This document shows, in pieces, positions 28,450 through 39,945 of a stretch of 64,000 bases of DNA; the first letter of the stretch is position 1, and each line of letters starts with the position of its first letter. Source of the DNA: a virus (Duplodnaviria; Caudoviricetes); the IMG/VR virus record IMGVR_UViG_3300032770_000022, positions 1,142-65,141 of that record. One strand, written 5' to 3'. The notes under the pieces are model-generated. The model was not told where the DNA came from. It searched no databases and worked only from the letters and a program-made list of their open reading frames with translations. The position numbers and the translations under genes are program-made.

Positions 28450-28947
28450 ATGTCTATTGGTCCTGACGACAAACCAGAGGAACAAAAGCCGCCGGAAAGG
28501 AACAAGGGCGGCCGGCCTCGTTACCAGCCGAAACCGCAGGACAGGCAACTCGTTCATGCCCTCCATGCCCACGGTTTCAGCCTTCGGTTTATCGCCAAGA
28601 AAGTCGGCATCGATGTGACCACGCTGCGCAAGGCGTTCCGCGAGGACCTCCGCCAGGCGCATGAAGAGATCAAAGCGGCGATGGTCGCCTCGCTCCTGCG
28701 GTCAGCCAACGGCGGAGCCTGGGGTGCAGCGAAGTACTGGCTCATGTGCTTCGGCGGGCCTGAATGGAAGCCGCCCAGGGAAGCTGAGGACGTACTGCCG
28801 CCAGGCGCGAACGCCGGGAACACCACCATCGTCATCCGGGGCGGGCTGCCGCCGCAGGTTTACACCGACGCCGGGCCGGACATCGAGGGCGTGCCCCCGA
28901 AGATGAACGGCAGGGGCAATGGTGCAGACCCAGACCATCCAGCTTGA
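28450..28947 (+). CDS. terS: Terminase small subunit
   Basis: 'GGRP', HTH 'IAKKVGIDVTTLRK.F..DL', 'AAKYWL'; directly upstream of TerL. Confidence 0.75.
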   Translation: MSIGPDDKPEEQKPPERNKGGRPRYQPKPQDRQLVHALHAHGFSLRFIAKKVGIDVTTLRKAFREDLRQAHEEIKAAMVASLLRSANGGAWGAAKYWLMCFGGPEWKPPREAEDVLPPGANAGNTTIVIRGGLPPQVYTDAGPDIEGVPPKMNGRGNGADPDHPA

Positions 28948-30271
28948 CGCCCATCGCTCGAAGGGCTGGCGCGCATCGCAGAAGCGGCGGGACGGAGGGC
29001 TGGAGCTAGAGCTCGACCTGCCCACGCTGCACGAGGACCAGGCGCGGGCCTACAACATGCCGGCGCGGTTCAAGGCGATCCGGGCGGGCAGGCGCTGGGG
29101 CAAGACGAGTCTTGCAGAGCTGGTCGCGATCGACGCGGCGGTGCGCGGCGAGTACGTGGGCTGGTTCGCCCCTGAGTACAAGTTCCTGTCGGAAGCCTAT
29201 ACCGACATCGCCGGGCAGATGGCGCCGCTGATCTGGTCATCGTCCAAGGTCGAGGGCGTGATGCGCACTACGACAGGCGGGCGCATCGACTTCTGGTCGC
29301 TGGACAATGAGCGCGCGGGCCGGTCGAGGCGCTACCACAAGGTCATTATCGACGAGGGCGCGTTCACCAAGCCGAACATGATGGACATCTGGGACAAGTC
29401 CATCCGGCCCACGCTGGTCGACTACCGAGGCTCCGCGCTGGTCACGTCCAACACGAACGGCATCGACGCGACCAACTTCTTCTACTCGATCTGCAACGAC
29501 CCGAAGCACCAGTTCAAGCAGTACCACGCGCCGACGCACCGCAATCCGTACATGCCGGCGGACGAGCTCGCGGAGATCGAGGCGAAGACGCACCCGCTGG
29601 TCTATCAGCAGGAATACCTCGCCGAGTTCGTGGACTGGTCGGGGCAGGCGTTCTTCAGCCAGATGTCGCTGCTCGACAAGGACGGCCACGCCTATCCCTA
29701 TCCGGTCGTGTGCGACGCGGTGTTCGCGGTGGCCGACACCGCGATCAAGGACAAGAGTGAGAACGACGGAACTGCGGTGACGTTTTACGGCCGCAACCGC
29801 GCGGTGCCCGGCGTGCCGCTGCTGATCCTGGACTGGGACATCATCCAGGTGCAGGGATCGCTGCTCGAGGTCTGGCTCGCCAAGGTGTTCGAGCGCCTGG
29901 AGCAATTGGCGAAGATGTGCCGGGCGCGGCACGGCTCGGTAGGTGCATGGATCGAGGACAAGGGATCGGGTACGATCCTGCTACAGCAGGCACGCAGGCG
30001 GGGCTGGGACGCGCACCCGATCGACAACGACCTGACGAAGCTCGGCAAAGACGCCAGGGCGATCAACGTCTCGGGCTACGTGCATCGCGGCATGGTCAAG
30101 TTCACGCAGCCCGCTTACGACCGCGTGGTGACCTACAAGGGCGTAACGCGCAACCATCTGCTCGCCCAGGTCGTCGGCTACCGTGTGGGCATCGACAGCG
30201 GCGCGGACGACGCGCTGGACACGTTCACCTACGGCGTGGCTATCGCGCTCGGTGATGCCAAGGGGTTCTGA
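28919..30271 (+). CDS. terL: Terminase large subunit
   Basis: 'AGRRWGKT' Walker A, 'IIDEG' Walker B, 'YQQEYLAEF', nuclease 'ADTA', 'IEDKGSG', 'DDALD'. Confidence 0.93.
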   Translation: MVQTQTIQLDAHRSKGWRASQKRRDGGLELELDLPTLHEDQARAYNMPARFKAIRAGRRWGKTSLAELVAIDAAVRGEYVGWFAPEYKFLSEAYTDIAGQMAPLIWSSSKVEGVMRTTTGGRIDFWSLDNERAGRSRRYHKVIIDEGAFTKPNMMDIWDKSIRPTLVDYRGSALVTSNTNGIDATNFFYSICNDPKHQFKQYHAPTHRNPYMPADELAEIEAKTHPLVYQQEYLAEFVDWSGQAFFSQMSLLDKDGHAYPYPVVCDAVFAVADTAIKDKSENDGTAVTFYGRNRAVPGVPLLILDWDIIQVQGSLLEVWLAKVFERLEQLAKMCRARHGSVGAWIEDKGSGTILLQQARRRGWDAHPIDNDLTKLGKDARAINVSGYVHRGMVKFTQPAYDRVVTYKGVTRNHLLAQVVGYRVGIDSGADDALDTFTYGVAIALGDAKGF

Positions 30272-31752
30272 TGTCCGACAGCTTCAACTCCCCTCCGTCA
30301 TCGACGCTGAACGCGGGCGGCTCGCAGCTCGGCACGGAGTTGATGTCGCTGCTGATCGCCAACGACATCCAGCCCGGTGACTCGCCGTCCTACCAGATAT
30401 GCAAGACGATCTATCTCTATCACCCGCTCGGCGCGAAGATGGTCGAGGCGCCGCTGAACATCGCGCAGTCCCAGGCGCGCGAGATCGACGTGCCGGGCCA
30501 TCCCGAGCGCGTGGCGCGCGCCTTCCTCGACGAATGGAAGCGCCTGCACACGGACGTGCTGATCTTTAACACCGCGAGGACCGCGCGCATCTACGGCATC
30601 TCGTCGGTGGTCGTGGGCGCGGTGGACAAGCCCACGAACGCGCCGCTGACGCCCAAGGAGCTCGCCGGCGAGCAGCTTTTCTTCAACGTGCTGGACCCGC
30701 TGAACACGGCGGGCAGCCTGGTGCTGAACCAGAACCCGAACTCGCCCGACTTCCAGGCGGCGACGACCGTGGTGACCGGCGGGCAGACGTACCACCGCTC
30801 CCGCGTCTGCATCATCATGAACGAACAGCCGATCTACATCGCCTACACAAGCTCGTCCTTCGGCTTCGTCGGCCGCTCGGTCTACCAGCGCGCGCTGTTC
30901 CCGCTCAAGTCCTTCATCAACACGATGATCGCGGACGACATGATCGCGCGGAAGCTCGGGCTGCTGATCGCCAAGATGGAGGCGCCGTCGTCCGTCATCG
31001 ACAAGATGATGACCGGCCTGCTCGGCATGAAGCGCGCGCTGCTCCAGCAGGCGCAGACGGACAACGTGCTGGGCATCGGCAAAGAGGAAGACATCGCCAC
31101 GCTGAACATGATGAACGTGGACGGCGCGGGCACATATTCGCGTAACGATATTCTGAAAAATTGCGCAACCGCAGCGGATATGCCGGCGGTGCTGTTGGAG
31201 AATGAGACGTTAGTGCAAGGCTTCGGCGAGGGGAGGGAAGACGCAAAACGCATTGCTGAATATGCCGACCGCGTGCGCGAATGGATGCAGCCGCTATACG
31301 ACTTCTTCGACGGCATCGTGCAGCAGCGTGCATGGAACCGAGACTTCTTCGCCTCGATGCAGCAGGATGATCCCGAGACTTATGGCAATATGCGTTATGA
31401 GGCGGCGCTGTCCAAGTGGCGCGCAGCGTTCACCGCGACTTGGCCATCGTTACTGCGAGAACCTGAATCGGAACGAGTCAAAGTTGATGATACTAGGCTC
31501 AGGGCAACCATCGCACTGATGCAAGTCATGGTGCCGATGCTCGATCCGACCAATAAGGCGACGTTCTTCTCGTTCGTCGAGGATGCGATCAACTCCGCTG
31601 AAATGTTGTTCCCTGGTAAGTTGACGTTGGATGTCGAGGCTCTGGCTGATTTTACCCCGCCGACACCAGGCATGAATGGCGAAAGCGGGGATCAGGGAGG
31701 TGGCTTGGCTCAGCCAAAACCACCAGCATTCAGAATGAAGGCTGCCGCCTGA
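30271..31752 (+). CDS. Portal protein (DUF1073-like)
   Basis: Position after TerL; 'ARIYG', 'YHRSR', 'GRSVY', 'AADMP..LL'. Confidence 0.85.
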   Translation: MSDSFNSPPSSTLNAGGSQLGTELMSLLIANDIQPGDSPSYQICKTIYLYHPLGAKMVEAPLNIAQSQAREIDVPGHPERVARAFLDEWKRLHTDVLIFNTARTARIYGISSVVVGAVDKPTNAPLTPKELAGEQLFFNVLDPLNTAGSLVLNQNPNSPDFQAATTVVTGGQTYHRSRVCIIMNEQPIYIAYTSSSFGFVGRSVYQRALFPLKSFINTMIADDMIARKLGLLIAKMEAPSSVIDKMMTGLLGMKRALLQQAQTDNVLGIGKEEDIATLNMMNVDGAGTYSRNDILKNCATAADMPAVLLENETLVQGFGEGREDAKRIAEYADRVREWMQPLYDFFDGIVQQRAWNRDFFASMQQDDPETYGNMRYEAALSKWRAAFTATWPSLLREPESERVKVDDTRLRATIALMQVMVPMLDPTNKATFFSFVEDAINSAEMLFPGKLTLDVEALADFTPPTPGMNGESGDQGGGLAQPKPPAFRMKAAA

Positions 31753-31753
31753 T

Positions 31754-31782
31754 TTGCTTTGGTGCGTTGGTCTGCATACAAT
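31754..31782 (+). promoter_or_regulatory. Sigma70-type promoter of guide array A
   Basis: TTGCTT (31754-59), 17-nt spacer, TACAAT (31777-82). Confidence 0.7.
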
Positions 31783-31789
31783 CGGCCTC

Positions 31790-31929
31790 GGCTCGGCAAG
31801 GCATGGATTGCCAAGGCAACGCTGGGTGCGGCACGACGCGTCGCGGCAGGCATGGCACGACCCGGCGCGGCTCGGTATGTCAAGGCTCGGTATGGCGTGG
31901 TGAAAGAGGCGGCTTCGGTCGCCTCTTTC
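31790..31929 (+). ncRNA. GGY-NN pentamer guide array A (two units separated by GGCA) with 3' hairpin
   Basis: 11 + 10 in-register pentamers (ggc-tc ggc-aa ggc-at gga-tt ...), then GAAAGAGGCGGC-TTCG-GTCGCCTCTTTC. Confidence 0.8.
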
Positions 31930-31940
31930 TTTGCCCGCAT

Positions 31941-32095
31941 TTGACAAACGGAACAGGGACGGCTTAGGGTCGCATCGCGTTGCCATCACAGCGCAAGCGC
32001 GATGCTGATCCAGGACTTCCAATGGCCCCGGTGATGCTTCGCATCCCCTGTGTTCGCGCCGGGCGTGATGGGCCGGGCGCCATTGGAGGGCTAAC
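31941..32095 (+). promoter_or_regulatory. Promoter and structured 5' leader of the RAMP-like gene
   Basis: TTGACAAACGGAACAGG; CTTCCAATGGC (32016-26) pairs with GCCATTGGAGG (32079-89), covering the RBS. Confidence 0.55.
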
Positions 32096-32812
32096 ATGCC
32101 ACTAGACCAAGCAACTGCCGGGCGGCGTTCCCGCACGGAGAAGATCACCATCCCGTCGCTGTCTGCGGCGGAAATCGAAGCAGCCAAGGCAGCCGGACAG
32201 CCAGAGATCATCCGGATCGAAAAGCCGAAGCTGCGCACGGCCTCCATCCCGATCGTTGGTATCTCGCCATACGTGCAGCATGCGTTCAGCGAGAAGCAGC
32301 GGAAGAAGATGGAGGAGACGCAGCGGGCCGGACAGCAGGCGCGCGGCAAGAAGAACCGCCAGCCCAAGGACTTCGAGGAGGTCTACGAGGCCGCGAAGCA
32401 CATCAGCAAGGACGGCTGGTGCGGCATTCCGGCTCCCGCATTCCGCAACGCGATGATCGACGCGTGCCGGCTCGTGGGCTTCAAGATGACGCACGCCAAG
32501 CTGTCGGTATTCGTCGAGGCTGACGGGTTCGATCGCAACGACGGGACACCGCTAGTCAAGATCGTCGGCGAGCCGCACATCCACGAGGCGGCGGTGCGCA
32601 ACGACAGCGGCGTGGCGGACATCCGCTGGCGGCCGATGTGGGACGAGTGGTCCGCGCTCGTGCGTGTCACCTGGGACGAGGACCAGTTCTCGGCAACGGA
32701 CGTAATGAATCTGATGCTCCGCGCCGGCTTGCAGGTGGGCATCGGGGAGGGACGGCCCAACAGCCCGAAGTCGAACGGGCTGGGCTGGGGCCGGTTCGAG
32801 GTGAAGTCATGA
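32096..32812 (+). CDS. Stand-alone RAMP/Cas7-like RNA-binding protein, candidate guide effector
   Basis: 'IPIVGISPY' (beta1), 'GIPAPAFRNAM' (RAMP IPxSxLKG-type motif) and C-terminal Gly-rich loop 'GIGEGRP...GLGWGRFEV'. Confidence 0.75.
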   Translation: MPLDQATAGRRSRTEKITIPSLSAAEIEAAKAAGQPEIIRIEKPKLRTASIPIVGISPYVQHAFSEKQRKKMEETQRAGQQARGKKNRQPKDFEEVYEAAKHISKDGWCGIPAPAFRNAMIDACRLVGFKMTHAKLSVFVEADGFDRNDGTPLVKIVGEPHIHEAAVRNDSGVADIRWRPMWDEWSALVRVTWDEDQFSATDVMNLMLRAGLQVGIGEGRPNSPKSNGLGWGRFEVKS

Positions 32813-33249
32813 GCGCGCGCATCCAAGCTGAATTGCTCACTCTGCGCGACAGCAACGGCATCATCGACGCCCGCCGTGCCGTCGATTGGGCGAAGCAGCA
32901 CCAGGACAGCGCCTTGTATCAGGCGCTCGAATGGGACGATGCGACGGCGGCGATCGAATACCGCATCAGTCAGGTGCGGCGCTTGATCGCGGTGCATATC
33001 GTGGACGCAGAAGGCCATCGGCAGGTCGTGTCGCTGTCGGTCGATCGCCAACAGGGCGGCGGCTATCGCAGCGTCCAGGACGTGCTGTCGGTCGATGACC
33101 TGCGTGCGGTGATGCTGTCCGACGCGCTCGAAGAATTGCAGCGAGTTCAGCGGAAATATGAGTATCTACAAGAACTGGCGAAAGTCTGGGAAGCCGCTCA
33201 GCAGGTCGAGCAGGAGACGCGACCGAGGCGCCGCCGCCGCGCGGCGTGA
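32809..33249 (+). CDS. Helical partner protein of the RAMP-like gene
   Basis: ATGA-coupled; 'LEWDDATAAIEYRISQVRRLI' motif; 146 aa. Confidence 0.7.
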   Translation: MSARIQAELLTLRDSNGIIDARRAVDWAKQHQDSALYQALEWDDATAAIEYRISQVRRLIAVHIVDAEGHRQVVSLSVDRQQGGGYRSVQDVLSVDDLRAVMLSDALEELQRVQRKYEYLQELAKVWEAAQQVEQETRPRRRRRAA

Positions 33250-33258
33250 TCACGATCA

Positions 33259-33590
33259 GGCAGGGCAGGCGGAGCATGGACCGTTCCGTCCTGGCATGGC
33301 GTGGCACGCTAGGGCTCAGCAGGCGGAGCATGGAGGGCAGGGTCGGGCGCGTCGCGTTAAGGCTGTGCTTGGCGCGGTTCGGGATGGCTCGGCAGGCTCG
33401 GCAAGGTTCGGCGCGATCAGGCCTGTCCAGGTCAGACTCGGCATTGCGGGGTAGGGCAGGCATGGCCCGGCAGGCGGAGCTTCGCTTGGCGCGGTCAGGC
33501 ATAGACCGGACCGGATCGGCAGGCTCGGTTAGGCGCGGCGCGAAGCGGCATGTCGCTGCTCGGCTGGTCCTGGAACGGCAGGCATGGAGG
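33259..33590 (+). ncRNA. GGY-NN pentamer guide array B (about five long units plus short ones, delimited by GGCA/AGCA)
   Basis: About 60 in-register pentamers; 4-nt delimiters at 33264, 33318, 33391, 33455, 33469, 33518, 33577. Confidence 0.8.
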
Positions 33591-33596
33591 TAGCCG

Positions 33597-34421
33597 GTGG
33601 CAACTTCTTTCTTCCAAGTTGTCACCGACGCCATCAATGACGTTGCCGAATTCGGATACGAATCAGAGGAACGGCTAGCGTATTGGCTAACGGAGATACG
33701 CCAGGCAGCCGAGCGCGATCTGATCTCCGAGGGCGGGCTACAGGCGCAACTCGATCGCGTGCTGGTCGCGACGTACCAGCGGCTGGTGGATCGCGGTCGC
33801 GTGTTGCAGCGCCATTCCGGGATCGCGAGATATACGCTCGAACAACTGCGGCCGCAGCTCCGTGCTGAACTGGATCGCAGAATCGCGGCATCCGCGAACC
33901 TGATCCGGCTCAATCGCGCGACGGCGATCAACGAAACGTTGCAACGGTTCTCTGGATGGGCGTCGTCCGTTCCCGCCGGCGGGACCGACATTACGAACCG
34001 ACGAGAGGTCAAAGCTAACGTCCGCAAGTCACTGGCAGGACTGCCGTTTGAGACCCGGCGTGTACTCGTGGACCAATCACATAAACTCTCGGCTGCGATC
34101 TCCGACATCGTTGCGATGGACCAAGATGCGATCGGCGCCGAGTGGCACTCGCACTGGCGCCAGCAAAACTATCAATATCGACCGGAACACAAAGCCAGAG
34201 ACGGGATCGTGTATCCGGTCAAGGACAGTTGGGCCGCGCAGCGCAGGTTCGTCAAAGCGGACGAGCATGGATTTTACGAAGATCACGAACGCGCAGGCGA
34301 AATGATTTTCTGCCGCTGCTGGATTCGCTGGATTTACGCGCTCAGGGATATGCCGAAGGAACTGCTGACGGACGCGGGGCGCAGGGCACTCGCGGACGCG
34401 CGGGCGAAGGTGATGGCCTGA
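33597..34421 (+). CDS. Head morphogenesis / minor head protein (Mu F, SPP1 gp7-like)
   Basis: 'WHSH...YRPEH..RDG', 'FCRC'; position after portal; GTG start with GGAGG. Confidence 0.8.
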   Translation: MATSFFQVVTDAINDVAEFGYESEERLAYWLTEIRQAAERDLISEGGLQAQLDRVLVATYQRLVDRGRVLQRHSGIARYTLEQLRPQLRAELDRRIAASANLIRLNRATAINETLQRFSGWASSVPAGGTDITNRREVKANVRKSLAGLPFETRRVLVDQSHKLSAAISDIVAMDQDAIGAEWHSHWRQQNYQYRPEHKARDGIVYPVKDSWAAQRRFVKADEHGFYEDHERAGEMIFCRCWIRWIYALRDMPKELLTDAGRRALADARAKVMA

Positions 34422-34568
34422 TCCGAGATGCGCGCGACGGTCGCGCTCATGCCTGGCCGGGAGGCGGTTCCCGGTGTCGTTAGTGGACGTTTCCTCCCAA
34501 CCTTGAGCGGCGCGCGTCTCTCTGACCCCTTCCTTGGTGCGCCGCTTTCTTTTCCCCCCGGAGACGCG

Positions 34569-36518
34569 ATGCCCGGCTTCGAGCTGATGTCGGGCGTGGG
34601 GGAGGACGACGCTGCGGCGGCCGAGCGCATCATCGACGCGCGGCTGGCAGAGCTAGGAGCGAGGTATCCGCGCCTGATCGCGCTGCTGGGCGGCACGCAC
34701 ATACGGCTCGCGCCTGGGGCGTTGCTTGAGGATAGCTGGCACGGCCAGAGCGACCCGGGCCGCATCACGCTGCCGGTGGAGCTGAAACAGGACCGATCGC
34801 CCGCGTCGCCCGGCGGCAGGCGCGTCGAGTTCGAACCGTCCCTGCTCGGTGTGCTGGACCACGAGATCGGCCATGAGATCGAGGCCGGGTTCGCTAAGGC
34901 AGCGGGCCTGGATATCGGCGAGTTGTTCGCGCGCCAGGACAGGGCGGCGATCGAGACCGGTCTCTCGCCCTACGCGGCGCAGGACGAGCACGAGTGGTTC
35001 GCGGAAAGTCTCGCCGCATGGCTGCATCCCGAGCGCCCGGCGGTGCACTTCGACCTGGACCCCGATCTCGCGCAGGCGTTCCAGCGCATCCTGACGACGC
35101 GCGGCGCGCACGACGCATCGTGGTGGACGTATCAAGCATCATCGCCGACTCCATCGTGGGAAGAAGCAATCGCCGCCGGAGCGTTCAAAGGCAGCAAGTC
35201 TGAATGGGAAAGCCTGTCTCCCGGCATGCGCCGCGAGATATTGCGGACCTGGAAACGGAAAGCCGACAGCGCCGGCCTGATCACGGTGGACGACGGCGAG
35301 ATCACGCCTCACGTCGAGAAGCACGAGGCGGACTACACGAACACGGGCGACGTGGAGCATTGCCGGCTGTGCGAGTTCTGGCGGCCGCCCGATGCGTGCG
35401 CGCTGGTGATCGGCACGATCAGCCCGGTCGGCTGGTGCAAGTTTTTCCAATGGCCCGACGGGCGGGCCGACACCGCAGGCGAGGCAGGCGACGATCCGGC
35501 GCAGCCGCTGGTCCGTGGCGCGGGCATGCTGCTGATCCATCACGGCGACGGCGGCGACCGCGTGCTGTTTGTGCTCAACAGGGAGCGCGGCACCTGGGAA
35601 TTTCCCGGCGGCGCCATCGAGGGCGACGAGACCGCCGAGGAAGCGGCCAAGCGGGAGACGCTGGAGGAAGTCGGCGAGATACCCTACGGCAGCGTGTCGC
35701 TGATGCTGCGCGACCGCATGACCGGCGTGGACTACTCGACGTTCATGGCGCAGGCGACGGGCACGCCCGAGCCGACGCTGAGCGACGAGCACACGGCCTG
35801 GAAGTGGGCCGCGCCGGGAGAACCGCCCGAGCCGCTGCATCCCGGCGTGCGCCTCGCCCTGGCCCGCCTGGGCATGAACGAACTAGACCTCGCGCGGGCG
35901 ATCGCGTCGGGCGAGTACTCGAGTCCGCAGCAGTTCGAGAACATCTGGCTCTATGCGCTGCGCATCACCGGCACCGGGATCAGCTACCGGCCCGAGTTGA
36001 GTGAATTCGTCTGGCGCGATCCAAAGCTCTATCTCAATGCGGACTTCCTCGCACGCTGCAACGGCCTGGCCGTCATCTGGCAGCATCCGCCGGGGGAAAG
36101 CCTGACGCAGGACGAGTACGAGAACCGCGTGCTGGGCGCGATCATGCTGCCCTACGTCGCTGGCGACGAGGTGTGGGGCATCGCGAAGATTTACGACCAG
36201 GACGCGGCGCTGATGATGCTCAACCAGCAGCTATCGACCTCGCCAGCTGTCGTGTTCCGTGATCCTGGCGCGAATAAAATCCGCAAATTAACTGGCGGCA
36301 AGCATTTACTAATCGAGGCGGAGCCGTCACTCTTGGACCATCTCGCGATCTGTGGCTTGGGCGTATGGGACAAGGGCGGCAGCCCGACCGGCGTCGCTGT
36401 GGGCGAAGCAGAGATGGCAGATGGCCATATCGAGGTTCCAGATCGAGCGGACGCAATTGCCGAACTGAACCGTGCAATTGCTTGGATGGACCTCACAAGG
36501 GTCACGTCCGCGCTCTGA
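34569..36518 (+). CDS. Multidomain prohead protease-like protein: zincin HExxH + HiPIP-like Cys cluster + NUDIX + DUF2213
   Basis: 'HEIGH..YA...EWFAE'; 'CRLC..C..ISPVGWC'; Nudix box 'GGAIEGDETAEEAAKRETLEEVG'; 'RITGTG..YR..RDP..HP..LSTSP..DHLAIC..GVWD'. Confidence 0.8.
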   Translation: MPGFELMSGVGEDDAAAAERIIDARLAELGARYPRLIALLGGTHIRLAPGALLEDSWHGQSDPGRITLPVELKQDRSPASPGGRRVEFEPSLLGVLDHEIGHEIEAGFAKAAGLDIGELFARQDRAAIETGLSPYAAQDEHEWFAESLAAWLHPERPAVHFDLDPDLAQAFQRILTTRGAHDASWWTYQASSPTPSWEEAIAAGAFKGSKSEWESLSPGMRREILRTWKRKADSAGLITVDDGEITPHVEKHEADYTNTGDVEHCRLCEFWRPPDACALVIGTISPVGWCKFFQWPDGRADTAGEAGDDPAQPLVRGAGMLLIHHGDGGDRVLFVLNRERGTWEFPGGAIEGDETAEEAAKRETLEEVGEIPYGSVSLMLRDRMTGVDYSTFMAQATGTPEPTLSDEHTAWKWAAPGEPPEPLHPGVRLALARLGMNELDLARAIASGEYSSPQQFENIWLYALRITGTGISYRPELSEFVWRDPKLYLNADFLARCNGLAVIWQHPPGESLTQDEYENRVLGAIMLPYVAGDEVWGIAKIYDQDAALMMLNQQLSTSPAVVFRDPGANKIRKLTGGKHLLIEAEPSLLDHLAICGLGVWDKGGSPTGVAVGEAEMADGHIEVPDRADAIAELNRAIAWMDLTRVTSAL

Positions 36519-36521
36519 AAA

Positions 36522-36607
36522 GGAAAAGGCGGCCGAAGCCGCCCTTTCCACCATGCCATGCCGGGCCTCGCTCGTCCCAGCCACGCCTATCCTCGCCTTG
36601 ACGCACT
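36522..36607 (-). ncRNA. GGY-NN pentamer guide array C (one unit) with 3' hairpin
   Basis: Minus strand: gtc-aa ggc-ga gga-ta ggc-gt ggc-tg gga-cg agc-ga ggc-cc ggc-at ggc-at ggt, then GGAAAGGGCGGC-TTCG-GCCGCCTTTTCC. Confidence 0.8.
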
Positions 36608-36608
36608 G

Positions 36609-36637
36609 ATATTACCCGACCGCATAGCGGACGGCAA
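36609..36637 (-). promoter_or_regulatory. Sigma70-type promoter of guide array C
   Basis: TTGCCG, 17-nt spacer, TAATAT on the minus strand. Confidence 0.7.
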
Positions 36638-36736
36638 ACCCAACCCGATCAGGGATCGCCCCGGCCTGATCGGCTCTTTCTCGTGGGCAACACGATGCGC
36701 ACCGCCGATATGGCGTCGCAGCAGGAGACAACTGAA

Positions 36737-37876
36737 ATGGCTGACAATTCGTCTTCGCTTGAGGCGAAGCTCGATGTGCTTGTCGCCGCGACGACGAAGA
36801 TCGGCGAGGCGGTGACCGCTCAGAACGCACGAATGGACTCGATCGAACAGCGGATCGGCGCCCGCAAGGACGACGATGACAAGCGCGATGATGACCGGAA
36901 GCGGGACGACGACGACGACCGCAAGGATCGCCGTCGCGATGACGATGACCGTCGCCGGGATGATGCGCGCCGCCGCGCCGATGCCTTCAAGTTCAGCCCA
37001 CGCAAGGACGACGATGACGACGACGCGTTCAAGAAGCGTCGCGATGCGGAACAGGGCGAGCTTGAGAAGGAGTTGAAGGAAGGCGGCGAGGACGAGGGCA
37101 AGGCGAAGGAGACCGCTGCCGACCGCCGCAAGAAGGCGGACGACGACGACGACAAAGCGCGCAAGGATGCGATGGACAAGAAGCGCGACGATGCGCGCAA
37201 GCGGGCGGACGCGTTCAAGTTCTCGCCCAGGCACGACGACGACGACGACGACAAGGCGAAGTCGCGCAGGGACGCCGAGGAGGAAGAACTCGCGAAGGCG
37301 CACGAGGAAGGCGGCGACGACAAGGACGACGCCCGCCGCAAGGCCAAAGATGCGCGCAAGAAGGCCGACGACGACGACGACAAGAAGCGGGACGACGCGC
37401 GCCGCGACAGCACGTTCGACCGCCGGCTGCGCGATCTGGAGCGCGCCCGCAGCATGTCCGACGAGGAAGTCAACAAGCTCGCGGAGATGCAGCAGTCGTG
37501 GGCCGAGGTCGCTCAGGCGCACGGCCTGACGGTGCACCGCACGGTCGACGGCGACACGCCGGAGAGCTTCAACCGCAGGCAGGCCAAGCGCTTCCAGAAG
37601 TTCTCCAAGAAGTGGAAGGACGAGGACCTCGGCGGGCTGCCGACCACGACGATGACCAACATCGCCGGGCCGGAAATCCGCACGGATTCGATCAAAGCCG
37701 CTTACCAGGGCGTCGGTGCCGAACCTGGAGTTTTACGGGAGATCAAGCGCTACGATCGAGTGGGCCGGCCGATAAGCGAGTTCAGCGGCCCGATCAGCGC
37801 GATGCTGGACCAGTTCAGCCTGCCGAACATGAAGGTCGTCGGCGGCATCAACCCGCAGCGCGCCGCCGGCTTCTGA
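36737..37876 (+). CDS. Capsid scaffold-like protein, D/K/R-rich with internal duplication
   Basis: Between protease and capsid genes; duplicated 'RADAFKFSPR..DDDDD..RRDAE' block. Confidence 0.7.
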   Translation: MADNSSSLEAKLDVLVAATTKIGEAVTAQNARMDSIEQRIGARKDDDDKRDDDRKRDDDDDRKDRRRDDDDRRRDDARRRADAFKFSPRKDDDDDDAFKKRRDAEQGELEKELKEGGEDEGKAKETAADRRKKADDDDDKARKDAMDKKRDDARKRADAFKFSPRHDDDDDDKAKSRRDAEEEELAKAHEEGGDDKDDARRKAKDARKKADDDDDKKRDDARRDSTFDRRLRDLERARSMSDEEVNKLAEMQQSWAEVAQAHGLTVHRTVDGDTPESFNRRQAKRFQKFSKKWKDEDLGGLPTTTMTNIAGPEIRTDSIKAAYQGVGAEPGVLREIKRYDRVGRPISEFSGPISAMLDQFSLPNMKVVGGINPQRAAGF

Positions 37877-37895
37877 GCATAGAAAGGGAAATCCA

Positions 37896-38777
37896 ATGGC
37901 TTCGAACATCTCCTTCAACCCTGTGCTCACCACGGTCGCGGCGGGCACGTTCACCGTCCAGACGGACGGATTCATGCAGGGCGTCTTCCTCGACGATCCC
38001 GCGATCAGGAACGAGCTGGTCCAGGGCATCTTGGCAACGACCGAGACGCTGCCGATGTGGGGCGGCATCGCGATCTATGAGAATATCCCCGGCGTCTCCG
38101 GCGGCCCGGCGGACAATCTCGGCTCGGTCATCGGCCGCGCCACGAGCAATGCGGCTATCGCTGGCTTCTCGACCTTCAACCAGGCGTCGAACTTCATCAC
38201 GACGCCGCAGAGCGAGGCGCCATCCGCTGGCCAGAGCATGTCGGTGCCGTACTTCCGGCTCGGCTCCGGCGCGCGCATCGCCGTGCAGTGCGATCCGGGC
38301 CTCGCCGCGCTTGAGGGCGCGACGACCAGCCCGCAGGTGTCCTGGGATATCAACAACCAGGTCTTGCAGGAGTACGTCGCCTCCGGCGCGACCGAGGCGG
38401 TTACGTCGATGACCTGGAGCGCCACCAACGGCGGGCAGATTGCCGTGGTGATGACTGGCGCATCGGTCTTCGGGCTGGGCGATCAGGTCTACGTGTCGGG
38501 CGCGACGAACACTGGCACCGGTGGCGCGTCTGCCGTCAACGGCAGGTTCGTGATCAACACCTGGACGGACACGACGCACTTCACGCTGCTCGCTCCCGCC
38601 GCCTCGGGCGTGATCGGCACGATCGGCGGCACGATCGTCCTGAACGTCGGCATCGGCGCTTTGGCTGTCAAAGTGCTGAGCCTACACCTCGGGAACAGCC
38701 GCACGATCCTGTACGATCCGGTGCAGAATTTCGTCCACTGGCAGAACGGCGGGAACGTCGCGATCATCCAACTCTGA
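37896..38777 (+). CDS. Capsid cement/decoration protein
   Basis: 'G..QG..LDDPAIR..L..G......PMWGGI.I.E', 'RLGSGARI.V'; precedes the MCP. Confidence 0.65.
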   Translation: MASNISFNPVLTTVAAGTFTVQTDGFMQGVFLDDPAIRNELVQGILATTETLPMWGGIAIYENIPGVSGGPADNLGSVIGRATSNAAIAGFSTFNQASNFITTPQSEAPSAGQSMSVPYFRLGSGARIAVQCDPGLAALEGATTSPQVSWDINNQVLQEYVASGATEAVTSMTWSATNGGQIAVVMTGASVFGLGDQVYVSGATNTGTGGASAVNGRFVINTWTDTTHFTLLAPAASGVIGTIGGTIVLNVGIGALAVKVLSLHLGNSRTILYDPVQNFVHWQNGGNVAIIQL

Positions 38778-38780
38778 AAC

Positions 38781-38898
38781 AAAACGGCTGGCTCCGAAGA
38801 ACCAGCCGTTTTTCCACTCCATGTCTCGCCCCGCCTCGGCTGGCCGTTTCCAGACGTGCCCAGCCCCGCCTCGCCTCCATGCCAACCCGGCTCGCGCC
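38781..38898 (-). ncRNA. GGY-NN pentamer guide array D with 3' hairpin
   Basis: Minus strand: 12 in-register pentamers (38875 to 38816) plus about 4 upstream, then AAAAACGGCTGGTTC-TTCG-GAGCCAGCCGTTTT. Confidence 0.8.
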
Positions 38899-38931
38899 AG
38901 GCGCGCTAGCCTTTAGCACAAGGATACCGAA

Positions 38932-39945
38932 ATGGCCACAATCAGCCCGAGCTGGACGCAGGTGCATCCGAGTTTCATCGAGCCGGACATCCTGCTTCAG
39001 TACAACCAGGCGTCCGGTTTCCGCTATCTCCTCGCCGGTTCGGAGCCTCGTACGAAAATCGGCAGCGAGGACCTCTACGTTTACATTAAGCGGATGGATA
39101 TACGCACGCGCGTCTCGTCCGCGCAGGCGGCGGGCAACCAGCTTCCGTCTGTCTCGGTGTCGATGAACATGATATCGACGCCGACCTATCTCGATCGGGT
39201 GCGCGCGGAGTACGACCACCACGACACGGCTGCGACCGCCGAGTGGGGCGCGTCCATCGTCGAGGTGCAGCGTCTTGGCATGCGGCAGGGATGCAACCAG
39301 CTCCTCCGCAACAAGACGCTGTATGGCCTCAATCCTGGCGAGGGGATCGTCAATACGCCCAGCGCGACCACCGTCTCGCTGCCGGCGGATACCAACGGCA
39401 ACACGACGTTCTCGACCTACGACAACGGGCAACTTGCGCTGTTCCTGTTGACGCAGATCACCGCGCTCAAGTCGCGCACGATGCAGTTCGGCATGCCCAA
39501 CCGGTTCCAGTTCCTCGGGCCGCAGCGCATCTTGGGCGGCATGGCGACGCAGAACATCGTGCAGCTTGTCCAGTACCAGCGGCCCGGCGCGGGCACCGAC
39601 ACGACGCGCGGGCTTGTCACGAAGGTCGAGGAGGAACAGGGCGACGAAATCCTGTGGACCTACGACGATACGCTGATCGGGAGGGGATCGGGCGGCACGG
39701 ACCTGATCATCCTGGCCATGCCAGAGGTGAGAAAGCCCACGGCATCGCCATTCAACACCAACGAGTTCGCCAATCTCGCGCCCGGGCTGGACGCGTGCCT
39801 GCTCCAGTACATCGACATGCCTGCGCCTCGGGAGATTCCAACGCCGCTGCCGGGCGGGGCGATTGATGTGGTGTCTGAATGGCGTTCGACATGCGGCTGG
39901 GCACCGAGGCCAGAAGCGGTTACACTGATCAGCATGGGCTTCTGA
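38932..39945 (+). CDS. Major capsid protein
   Basis: 337 aa, position after the cement gene, followed by a hairpin. Confidence 0.75.
   Translation: MATISPSWTQVHPSFIEPDILLQYNQASGFRYLLAGSEPRTKIGSEDLYVYIKRMDIRTRVSSAQAAGNQLPSVSVSMNMISTPTYLDRVRAEYDHHDTAATAEWGASIVEVQRLGMRQGCNQLLRNKTLYGLNPGEGIVNTPSATTVSLPADTNGNTTFSTYDNGQLALFLLTQITALKSRTMQFGMPNRFQFLGPQRILGGMATQNIVQLVQYQRPGAGTDTTRGLVTKVEEEQGDEILWTYDDTLIGRGSGGTDLIILAMPEVRKPTASPFNTNEFANLAPGLDACLLQYIDMPAPREIPTPLPGGAIDVVSEWRSTCGWAPRPEAVTLISMGF

What the first reader, a model, noticed from the sequence alone, without database searches (positions are those of the whole stretch)
35997..36637. Guide C decodes to the adjacent DUF2213 protease domain (E-Y/F-V-W-R-D-P)
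Array C read 5'-3' on the minus strand gives AA GA TA GT TG CG GA CC AT AT, i.e. N/K-D/E-Y-V-W/C-R-D/E-P-I/M-I/M. The upstream gene at 36000-36029 (agt gaa ttc gtc tgg cgc gat cca aag ctc) gives AG GA TT GT TG CG GA CC AA CT. That is 6/10 dinucleotides (five consecutive) and 16/20 nt, with a conservative Y>F difference, in a locally AT-rich recoded patch. The match is weaker on its own, but it is the third array whose best match I found lies in the neighbouring essential gene and in codon register.
Basis: partly seen in the sequence, partly recalled or inferred. Interest (0 to 1): 0.82.

Follow-up and report, generated by a model that had tools for sequence, protein, structure and literature searches.

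The report
VIPR guide RNA targeting rival phages' head gene
A short five-base-repeat RNA gene in this phage is a guide of the recently described CRISPR-like VIPR system, and it spells a conserved site in a head-assembly gene as related phages carry it, while the phage's own neighbouring copy differs at four of the twenty letters that are read.

Summary
On the minus strand, 36600-36551 holds ten YNNGG pentamers whose NN letters read AA GA TA GT TG CG GA CC AT AT. A 12-bp UUCG hairpin and a U-run follow.

Read by the published VIPR rule (two bases read, one skipped), the best match in the whole window on both strands is 36000-36028(+). It scores 16/20, in codon register, 523 nt from the array. 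The next best site scores 14/20, and 1.5-2.3% of shuffled guides reach 16.

The homologous site in related phages matches better:
- 19/20 in one viral and one metagenome contig (KEYVWRDPSI).
- 18/20 in five further distinct viral site sequences.
- 0 of 300 shuffled guides reach 18.
- No 20/20 target was found.

A Vipr RAMP protein (profile hit to SUSP1 Vipr, Csm3/Cas7-like fold) and its partner gene lie 3.7 kb upstream. The five match-bearing relative records searched have no vipr.

Best reading: a vrRNA aimed at relatives' alleles, with the owner's copy partly mismatched. VIPR was published in 2026, and this scan has already noted the same guide-beside-own-allele layout on this genome and on other genomes, so this is a new member of a known kind. 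The "DUF2213" label rests on look-alike searches only, and the "recoded patch" is weak.

The parts
36551..36600 (-). Guide part of vrRNA C: ten YNNGG pentamers, NN = AA GA TA GT TG CG GA CC AT AT
   Evidence: Nine of ten units end in GG. This is one of only two places in the window at >=7 of 8 period-5 GG/CC.
36517..36549 (-). 3' tail of vrRNA C: 12-bp hairpin with a UUCG loop, then UUUUC (intrinsic-terminator-like). Its last two bases overlap the stop codon of the + strand gene.
   Evidence: Fold, coordinates. The last ~50 nt match element A at 82% (E 5e-9; alignment). Guide D has the same layout with different stem letters.
36609..36637 (-). Possible promoter of vrRNA C: TTGCCG, 17 nt, TAATAT, ending 8 nt before the first unit
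   Evidence: Read by eye, coordinates. The consensus scan found no promoter at its 9-of-12 threshold, so this part is inferred.
36000..36028 (+). Owner's copy of the site the guide spells (S-E-F-V-W-R-D-P-K-L): 16/20 NN letters, skip bases on codon position 3
   Evidence: unique best site of the window. (homologous to the better-matching sites in relatives).
34428..36518 (+). 696-aa head-module gene holding the site: NUDIX domain (residues 363-475) plus a C-terminal DUF2213-like domain (about 485-661)
   Evidence: Pfam NUDIX E 1e-14. phrog_6216 E 1.7e-100. Atlas look-alikes with DUF2213, score 0.95 and TM 0.79-0.81. The Pfam DUF2213 model itself gives no match.
32096..32812 (+). vipr: RAMP protein of the VIPR system (238 aa)
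   Evidence: The only significant PDB sequence hit is 'SUSP1 Vipr protein' 36pp_D, E 0.0076 for the single sequence and 8.7e-5 for the profile. The AF2 model has pLDDT 80.8. Top folds are Csm3/Cmr4/type VII Cas7 RAMPs, E 1e-4. 78 of 80 homologue loci carry period-5 GG arrays in the fetched locus, nearly all of these with at least one array within about 1.5 kb of the gene.
32809..33249 (+). vap-like partner gene (146 aa, ATGA overlap with vipr, basic tail); function unknown
   Evidence: overlap, translation. A homologue is present in 64 of 80 vipr loci and starts within 300 nt after vipr in 52. No Pfam, NCBIfam or PDB sequence match.
31786..31935 (+). vrRNA element A (two guide tracts plus the same kind of hairpin tail), just after the portal gene
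   Evidence: Its 5' tract matches the owner's portal gene at 31150-31176 with 17/18 letters, and 0 of 500 shuffles reach that.
33250..33596 (+). Long multi-guide pentamer array B, downstream of vap
   Evidence: GG spacings mostly 5, 10 or 15 nt. Not decoded here.
38776..38905 (-). vrRNA element D with the same tail layout, between the 293-aa gene and the major capsid gene
   Evidence: Its target was not tested here.

Best explanation
Array C is a self-contained gene for a VIPR guide RNA (vrRNA). It has a possible promoter, ten GGY/NN pentamers and a hairpin tail, and is transcribed antisense to the head operon.

The phage's Vipr protein, encoded 3.7 kb upstream, would coat the GGY motifs. It would present the ten NN pairs to double-stranded DNA, reading two bases and skipping one. 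This step is inferred from the published mechanism.

The guide spells a conserved motif (K/N-E-Y-V-W-R-D/E-P-x-I/M) of the NUDIX/DUF2213-like head gene as related, vipr-less phages carry it. In a shared host it would therefore silence a rival's head operon. The owner's own copy, 523 nt away, differs at four read letters in four units (Ser for Lys/Asn, Phe for Tyr, Lys, Leu) and is presumably bound less well.

Keeping the guide next to the mismatched allele means recombination cannot easily separate the weapon from the immunity.

Shown here: the array, the tail, the Vipr family membership, and the match statistics in self and relatives.

Inferred: expression, binding, silencing, and that four mismatches protect the owner.
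For: Array and tail.

The system is present:
- Vipr profile hit to SUSP1 Vipr, E 8.7e-5.
- RAMP fold.
- 78 of 80 Vipr-homologue loci in IMG/VR carry period-5 GG arrays in the fetched locus, mostly next to the gene.
- The partner gene is conserved in 64 of 80.

The cassette is an insertion. In relative L004 the portal and next head gene are 1 nt apart. The L004 gap corresponding to array C is 95 nt and has no array.

Target:
- The owner's site is the unique best of the window at 16/20, and 15-23 of 1000 shuffled guides reach that.
- At the homologous site of 82 relatives' loci (69 distinct DNAs), scores run from 10 to 19. There is one at 19, five at 18 and none at 17.
- 0 of 300 shuffled guides reach 18 on the same 1.24 Mb.
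- Only the 1-nt skip rule gives this. Skips of 0, 2 and 3 and reversed guides give 14-16, once the array's own DNA is set aside for skip 3.
- A whole-IMG/VR pattern scan (units 1-8 and 10 exact) returned 8 places, and 7 are this same homologous site.
- The metagenome scan returned 1 place, also homologous, at 19/20.
- At three of the four letters where guide and owner differ, L090 has the guide's letter.
- The owner's first unit AG (Ser) occurs in 1 of 69 distinct sites, while the guide's AA occurs in 40 of 69.

The relatives that match lack vipr. 0 of 5 records have it, two of them 95-100% complete, and a positive control on three vipr-bearing records worked.

Published background, in the sections I read: natural targets are called at >=80% NN match with skip bases on wobble positions. 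VIPR acts in inter-phage conflict. Self-match lower than rival match is reported for vrRNA-targeting vrRNAs.
Against: - No 20/20 target was found in IMG/VR, the metagenome contigs or the genome collection. Unit 9 (AT) matches none of the 69 distinct homologous sites.
- The owner's site scores exactly 80%. That is the cut-off the papers use to call a target, and the level at which they report no self-hits. Self-sparing is therefore not assured, and I found no mismatch-tolerance data in the sections read.
- Eight of the 82 loci, including the one at 19/20, were fetched because they matched the guide pattern, so that set is enriched by design. Among the 80 loci fetched by capsid similarity alone, the best is 18/20 (L004).
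- The sister guide A1 matches the owner's portal gene better (17/18) than any sampled relative (16/18 at most). That fits self-regulation as well as unsampled close siblings.
- Hosts of the window phage and of the matching relatives are unknown, so co-infection is assumed.
- The first unit (AA) is preceded by GTC, not GGY, so it may not be presented by Vipr.
- In the other Vipr-homologue loci, hairpin-terminator tails after arrays are rare (2 of 80 loci).
Confidence: 0.65

Rival explanations
1. Self-regulation. Guide C, like guide A1, is meant to bind the phage's own head operon despite mismatches. It might keep late genes quiet in lysogeny or time their expression. Matches in relatives would then simply follow from homology.
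For: The owner's site reaches the published 80% threshold. Guide A1 matches the owner's portal gene at 17/18, better than any of the 89 relatives' loci scanned (max 16/18). VIPR of the studied type silences transcription rather than cutting.
Against: The guide fits relatives better than self: 19/20 and 18/20 against 16/20. At three of the four differing letters it agrees with the L090 allele. A regulator of its own gene would be expected to match it best. Across 1385 nine-unit guide windows from 80 Vipr-homologue loci plus this window, none matched its own locus at >=17/18. Only 2 did at >=16/18, against 1 for shuffled guides. The papers report no self-targets.
Confidence: 0.15
2. Relic guide. 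Array C is a decaying or orphaned vrRNA gene that once matched an allele now lost or unsampled, and it no longer does anything.
For: One of ten units has lost its GG (aCGag). The first NN lacks a preceding GGY. No perfect target was found in three collections. No RNA evidence is available.
Against: Nine of ten GG pairs, the full 12-bp tail hairpin and a plausible promoter are intact. Matches of 90-95% exist in seven viral contigs and one metagenome contig, well above the published 80% target threshold.
Confidence: 0.12
3. Chance. The pentamer run is only a G-rich stretch beside a bidirectional terminator, and the 16/20 match is a coincidence.
For: About 2% of shuffled guides reach 16/20 somewhere in the window. 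The hairpin can also serve the + strand gene that ends at 36518.
Against: The hit lies 523 nt from the array and in codon register. 0 of 300 shuffled guides reach the 18-19/20 seen at the homologous site of relatives. 7 of 8 whole-collection pattern hits fall on that same site. Sister elements with the same build sit beside a Vipr gene. 0 of 80 capsid-related loci without vipr have such arrays.
Confidence: 0.03

Closest known systems
VIPR systems (Vipr + vap + vrRNA), studied in Escherichia phage SUSP1 and a Pseudomonas fulva prophage. Sources: bioRxiv 10.64898/2026.04.26.720920 and 10.64898/2026.04.26.720927; PDB 36pp.
   Same: - A RAMP protein with sequence similarity to SUSP1 Vipr and a small partner gene.
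- A guide of ten YNNGG pentamers with variable NN followed by a structured 3' tail.
- Target matches only under the two-read, one-skipped rule, with skip bases on codon wobble positions.
- Carried by a phage, and matching other phages.
   Different: - Vipr is only distantly related: E 8.7e-5 over about 50 residues, and 238 aa against 202.
- The tail is a simple UUCG hairpin plus U-run, not the pseudoknot described for the SUSP1 clade. I did not compare it with SUSP1 RNA sequence.
- The guide gene lies 3.7 kb from vipr, on the opposite strand, inside the head operon.
- The matched gene is a head-assembly gene of relatives, not a satellite recombinase or a prophage regulator.
- The owner's homologous copy sits 523 nt away and scores 80%.
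Solo vrRNAs of SUSP1-family phages and F5 satellites (bioRxiv 10.64898/2026.10.15.759431; sections 8, 17 and 26 read)
   Same: Single vrRNA genes standing apart from vipr. Their self-match scores are lower than their scores on rival phages, which the authors read as avoiding autoimmunity.
   Different: Those solos sit where vipr-vap1 was deleted or in satellites. They target vipr, other vrRNAs, satellites or host REP elements. Here the phage keeps vipr, and the guide sits beside the owner's version of its target gene. The words 'protease' and 'capsid gene' do not occur in that paper's main text.
Class 1 CRISPR Cas7/Csm3 backbone with crRNA
   Same: The RAMP fold of the protein. A protein filament on a guide RNA interrupts pairing periodically (mechanism taken from the papers).
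   Different: There is no CRISPR array, no repeat-spacer structure and no other cas genes. The guide is read 2 of 5 letters against 2 of 3 target letters.

Membership tests
VIPR system | A Vipr RAMP protein encoded in the same element | tested here: met
   For 32096-32812 the only significant PDB sequence hit is SUSP1 Vipr (36pp_D), E 0.0076 single and 8.7e-5 with a 45-sequence profile. The AF2 model has pLDDT 80.8. The top Foldseek hits are Csm3/Cmr4/type VII Cas7, E 1e-4 to 1e-3, TM 0.34-0.46.
VIPR system | vrRNA with 9-16 tandem YNNGG (GGY/NN) units with variable NN | tested here: met
   There are ten in-register units at 36600-36551. Nine end in GG, and the base before NN is a pyrimidine in eight. 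78 of 80 homologue loci show arrays of the same periodicity in the fetched locus, mostly next to vipr.
VIPR system | Conserved structured 3' tail after the repeat tract | tested here: inconclusive
   Guides A, C and D of this phage share 'ATGG..GG-AAA', a 12-13-bp UUCG hairpin and a U-run, with different stem letters in D. It is not the pseudoknot described for the SUSP1 clade. Such hairpins follow arrays in only 2 of 80 homologue loci.
VIPR system | NN letters match a natural target at >=80% under the 1-nt skip rule, with skip bases on codon wobble positions | tested here: met
   19/20 in L090 and L172 and 18/20 in five further distinct site sequences, all in frame. Other skip rules and reversed guides give 14-16. 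0 of 300 shuffles reach 18.
VIPR system | Accessory vap gene next to vipr | tested here: met
   The 146-aa ORF overlaps the vipr stop (ATGA). Homologues are present in 64 of 80 vipr loci, 52 of them within 300 nt downstream. Its function and which vap class it belongs to were not determined.
VIPR system | No self-target at >=80% NN match (reported for the surveyed systems) | tested here: not met
   The owner's site 36000-36028 scores 16/20, exactly 80%. Guide A1 scores 17/18 on the owner's portal gene.
VIPR system | vrRNA is expressed and binds Vipr; the complex silences matching DNA | not testable with these tools
   This needs RNA sequencing, pull-down and reporter assays.
Pfam DUF2213 (PF09979), the label given to the target domain | Match to the Pfam model at its cut-off | tested here: not met
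   There was no match at E <= 10 for residues 485-696 or in the six-frame search of the whole record. ESM Atlas look-alikes do point to DUF2213 clusters, with feature score 0.95 and TM 0.79-0.81, so a distant relationship is likely.

The most novel reading that the evidence does not exclude
Guide C and the mismatched allele beside it form a selfish, homing-like module. In a co-infected cell, Vipr-vrRNA C would bind the rival's head gene about 0.5 kb from the spot where the guide gene is inserted. That would block the rival's transcription or replication there. Recombinational rescue from the VIPR-bearing genome would then copy the guide and the immune allele into the rival. This would be RNA-programmed gene drive among phages without a recognisable nuclease. 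The same layout holds for guide A1 next to the portal gene, and earlier notes of this scan report it in other phages.
Probability: 0.15. Interest if true: 0.8.

Novelty: new member of a known kind. Interest (0 to 1): 0.45.

Why it matters
VIPR was described only in 2026 and studied in two enterobacterial and pseudomonad systems. This locus is a distant Vipr family with thousands of metagenomic relatives (4240 at E <= 0.001).

It shows a guide aimed at a conserved motif of a head-assembly gene of related, vipr-less phages. The guide gene is parked beside the owner's partly mismatched copy.

If the mismatches protect the owner, this is a compact weapon-plus-immunity pair. It offers a natural series of alleles at 16, 18 and 19 of 20 letters for measuring how many mismatches VIPR tolerates. 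The sections of the papers I read do not give that figure.

Tried and rejected
Known RNA families and close relatives:
- Rfam gave 0 matches at gathering scores and only chance-level weak ones.
- Megablast of 30000-39000 against deposited phages found no match.
- A tail-consensus pattern in IMG/VR gave 0 hits.
- The 696-aa protein as a query for related loci gave 1 weak locus. I used the capsid protein instead.

Early ideas dropped once the VIPR papers were read and tested: a sponge RNA for a TRAP-like ring protein, a G-quadruplex, a REP/MITE-like insertion, a pac site.

Structure prediction: the single-sequence run of Vipr failed with pLDDT 35.7. It was repeated with an alignment.

Generality of self-matches: 1385 nine-unit guide windows from 80 Vipr-homologue loci plus this window gave none at >=17/18 on their own locus. 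There were 2 at >=16/18 against 1 for shuffles. That test cannot see 80%-level matches like this one.

Tails: a terminator-hairpin search after arrays in the other vipr loci found it in 2 of 80 loci. I built no covariance model because the three-tail alignment was poor.

My simple run caller decoded only guide C to a strong own-window match. It also called runs inside coding regions that are probably not guides. Guide D and array B were not decoded.

Expression: no RNA holder was listed for 35900-36900, and read laying was not used.

Data S3 and the supplementary tables on targets and self-match scores could bear on whether head-gene targets or guide-target adjacency are already reported. The statement that they are not in print rests only on these checks: 'capsid' occurs 0 times in the first paper, 'protease' and 'capsid gene' occur 0 times in the third paper, and one library search found 0 papers holding both 'vrRNA' and 'prohead protease'.

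Full report
**What is in the sequence**

The window is nearly all of a 65,141-base IMG/VR virus record that CheckV rates complete. The finding lies in the head module:
- terminase, 28919-30271
- portal, 30271-31752
- a MuF-like head gene, 33597-34421
- a 696-aa NUDIX-containing gene, 34428-36518
- a very acidic/basic 397-aa scaffold-like gene, 36683-37876
- a 293-aa gene, 37896-38777
- the major capsid gene, 38932-39945

The gap after the 696-aa gene, read on the minus strand, holds ten in-register pentamers at 36600-36551: cAAgg cGAgg aTAgg cGTgg cTGgg aCGag cGAgg cCCgg cATgg cATgg. A 12-bp hairpin with a UUCG loop and UUUUC follows directly at 36549-36517.

A period-5 GG/CC scan finds such periodicity at only three places in the window: this one, 31786-31903 (+) and 33250-33600 (+). 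The last ~50 nt of the first of those align to array C at 82%. A fourth element with the same tail layout lies at 38905-38776 on the minus strand. Rfam has no family for any of them.

**How I came to VIPR**

My first ideas were a protein-sponge RNA or a mobile repeat. I then read the papers' results and methods myself.

They describe phage-borne systems made of a RAMP protein (Vipr), an accessory gene (vap) and vrRNAs. A vrRNA has 9-16 YNNGG units and a conserved 3' tail. The NN pairs read double-stranded DNA with one base skipped between pairs, usually the codon wobble base. Natural targets are called at >=80% NN identity, and no self-hits at that level were seen in their surveys.

**Is the system here?**

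Yes.
- The 238-aa ORF at 32096-32812 has SUSP1 Vipr (PDB 36pp) as its only significant PDB sequence match. E is 0.0076 for the single sequence and 8.7e-5 with a 45-sequence profile.
- An alignment-based AF2 model (pLDDT 80.8) is most similar to the Csm3/Cmr4/type VII Cas7 backbone subunits.
- The family is large: 4240 proteins at E <= 0.001.
- In 78 of 80 IMG/VR loci fetched with it, period-5 GG arrays are present in the locus, mostly next to the gene.
- 64 of 80 also carry a homologue of the 146-aa ORF that overlaps the vipr stop codon here. In 52 of them it starts within 300 nt downstream.

By contrast, 0 of 80 loci fetched by capsid similarity have such arrays, and 0 of 89 have vipr or the partner gene. 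In the closest of them, L004, the portal and next head gene are 1 nt apart, and the gap corresponding to array C is 95 nt with no array. The cassette at 31753-33596 and the separate guide genes therefore look like insertions into a conserved head module.

**The match itself**

I scored the ten NN pairs as NN?NN?... against every position of both strands.
- Next are one site at 14/20 and seven at 13/20.
- 23 of 1000 guides with shuffled unit order, and 15 of 1000 with shuffled letters, reach 16 anywhere in the window.
- The site is in codon register and 523 nt from the array. I did not fold these two facts into a formal probability, but they make chance less likely still.

I located the homologous ten codons in 82 relatives' loci, which gave 69 distinct DNAs.
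- Scores run from 10 to 19.
- L090 (KEYVWRDPSI) scores 19/20, differing only in the second letter of unit 9.
- Five distinct site sequences score 18/20 (the L004/L085, L084, L086/L088, L087 and L091 sites).
- The owner scores 16.
- At three of the four letters where guide and owner differ, L090 carries the guide's letter.
- The owner's first unit (AG, Ser) is seen in 1 of 69 sites, and the guide's AA in 40 of 69.

Eight of these 82 loci, including L090, were fetched by a pattern built from the guide, so that set is enriched by design. Within the 80 loci fetched by capsid similarity alone, the best is L004 at 18/20.

The pattern scan is informative in itself. Of 8 places in all of IMG/VR that match units 1-8 and 10 exactly, 7 are this homologous site and 1 is a non-coding chance hit.

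A metagenome scan (unit 9 = AN) gave one place, again homologous and 19/20. The same kind of pattern in 596 Gb of prokaryote genomes gave 3 places, none homologous, which is about what chance predicts. No 20/20 site was found. A scan requiring units 2-10 gave nothing.

Controls:
- 0 of 300 shuffled guides reach 18 on the relatives' 1.24 Mb.
- Skip rules 0, 2 and 3 and reversed guides give 14-16. For skip 3, the array's own DNA is set aside.

**Who carries the matching sites**

Five match-bearing records were searched for Vipr and none has it. Two of them are 95-100% complete. The same search finds Vipr in the owner and in two other vipr-bearing records. Hosts are unknown for all of them.

**Interpretation**

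I conclude with high confidence that array C is a vrRNA gene and that its cognate sequence is this conserved motif of the NUDIX/DUF2213-like head gene.

The function I think most likely is silencing the head operon of related, vipr-less phages that meet this one in a cell. The owner's copy would be partly protected by four mismatches spread over four units. The guide is kept beside that copy so that weapon and immunity stay linked. The linkage argument is inference.

What weakens this reading:
- The owner's site is exactly at the 80% level the papers use to call targets.
- Unit 9 fits no sampled allele.
- The sister guide A1 matches the owner's portal gene at 17/18 (0 of 500 shuffles reach that), better than any sampled relative, which reach 16/18 at most.

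Self-regulation therefore remains a live rival. So does the possibility that the true targets are close siblings that the collections do not show, or that the tools leave out.

A broader test on 1385 guide windows from other vipr loci found no near-perfect self-matches. This agrees with the papers but is blind to 80%-level matches.

**Labels**

The Pfam DUF2213 model does not match this protein. ESM Atlas look-alikes by features (0.95) and by structure (TM 0.79-0.81) are DUF2213 and NUDIX+DUF2213 clusters from viruses, so a distant relationship is likely. Protease activity is not shown by anything I ran.

The 'AT-rich recoded patch' is mild: GC3 is 0.57 against 0.81, and 13% of equal windows are as low. 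It also concerns third positions, which VIPR does not read.

**Novelty**

The machinery and its code are published. Targeting a rival's homologous sequence with a lower self-match is published for vrRNA-targeting vrRNAs.

I did not find head-gene targets or guide-beside-own-allele layouts in the main texts searched. The supplements were closed.

Earlier notes of this scan report the same layout for other guides of this genome and for several other phages. I treated those as leads only. This finding is therefore one more, somewhat weaker, instance: a new member of a known kind, with a useful natural mismatch series.

Noticed in passing
31150-31176 (+) and 31802-31846 (+): Guide tract A1 (NN = AT TT AA AA TG GC AC GC GC; four of its nine units have lost GG) matches the owner's portal gene (ILKNCATAA) at 17/18, and 0 of 500 shuffles reach that. 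The only mismatch is a Leu TTR/CTG first-position difference. The sampled relatives have Ile where the owner has Cys and score 16/18 at most.
   Followed up: partly
34428-36518 and 36683-37876: PHROG family 6216 (545 positions) matches the C-terminal half of the 696-aa protein at positions 11-292, and the 397-aa scaffold-like protein at positions 325-541. The two are therefore one protein in members of that family. They are separate ORFs here, with guide C in the gap, and also in relative L004.
   Followed up: partly
33262-33340 and 33455-33480: Array B contains a recurring motif (CAGGCGGAGCATGGA or close variants) that may mark guide boundaries, in place of the hairpin tail seen in A, C and D.
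   Followed up: no
33593-33626 (+): An 11-bp hairpin (GGTGGCAACTT ... AAGTTGTCACC) spans the GTG start of the MuF-like head gene, directly after array B.
   Followed up: no
36860-37400 (+): The 397-aa protein is built of repeated Asp/Arg/Lys blocks, with several short (GAC)n runs in the tandem-repeat scan. This is typical of a scaffold-like or low-complexity head protein.
   Followed up: no
35319-35447 (residues 298-340 of the 696-aa protein): A weak NCBIfam match to the iron oxidase Iro / HiPIP-like model (E 3.2e-5, far below the cut-off) lies between the N-terminal part and the NUDIX domain.
   Followed up: no
L137 and L154: These are the only 2 of 80 Vipr-homologue loci with no period-5 GG array at the 6-of-8 threshold. 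I did not check whether the contig ends cut the arrays off.
   Followed up: no
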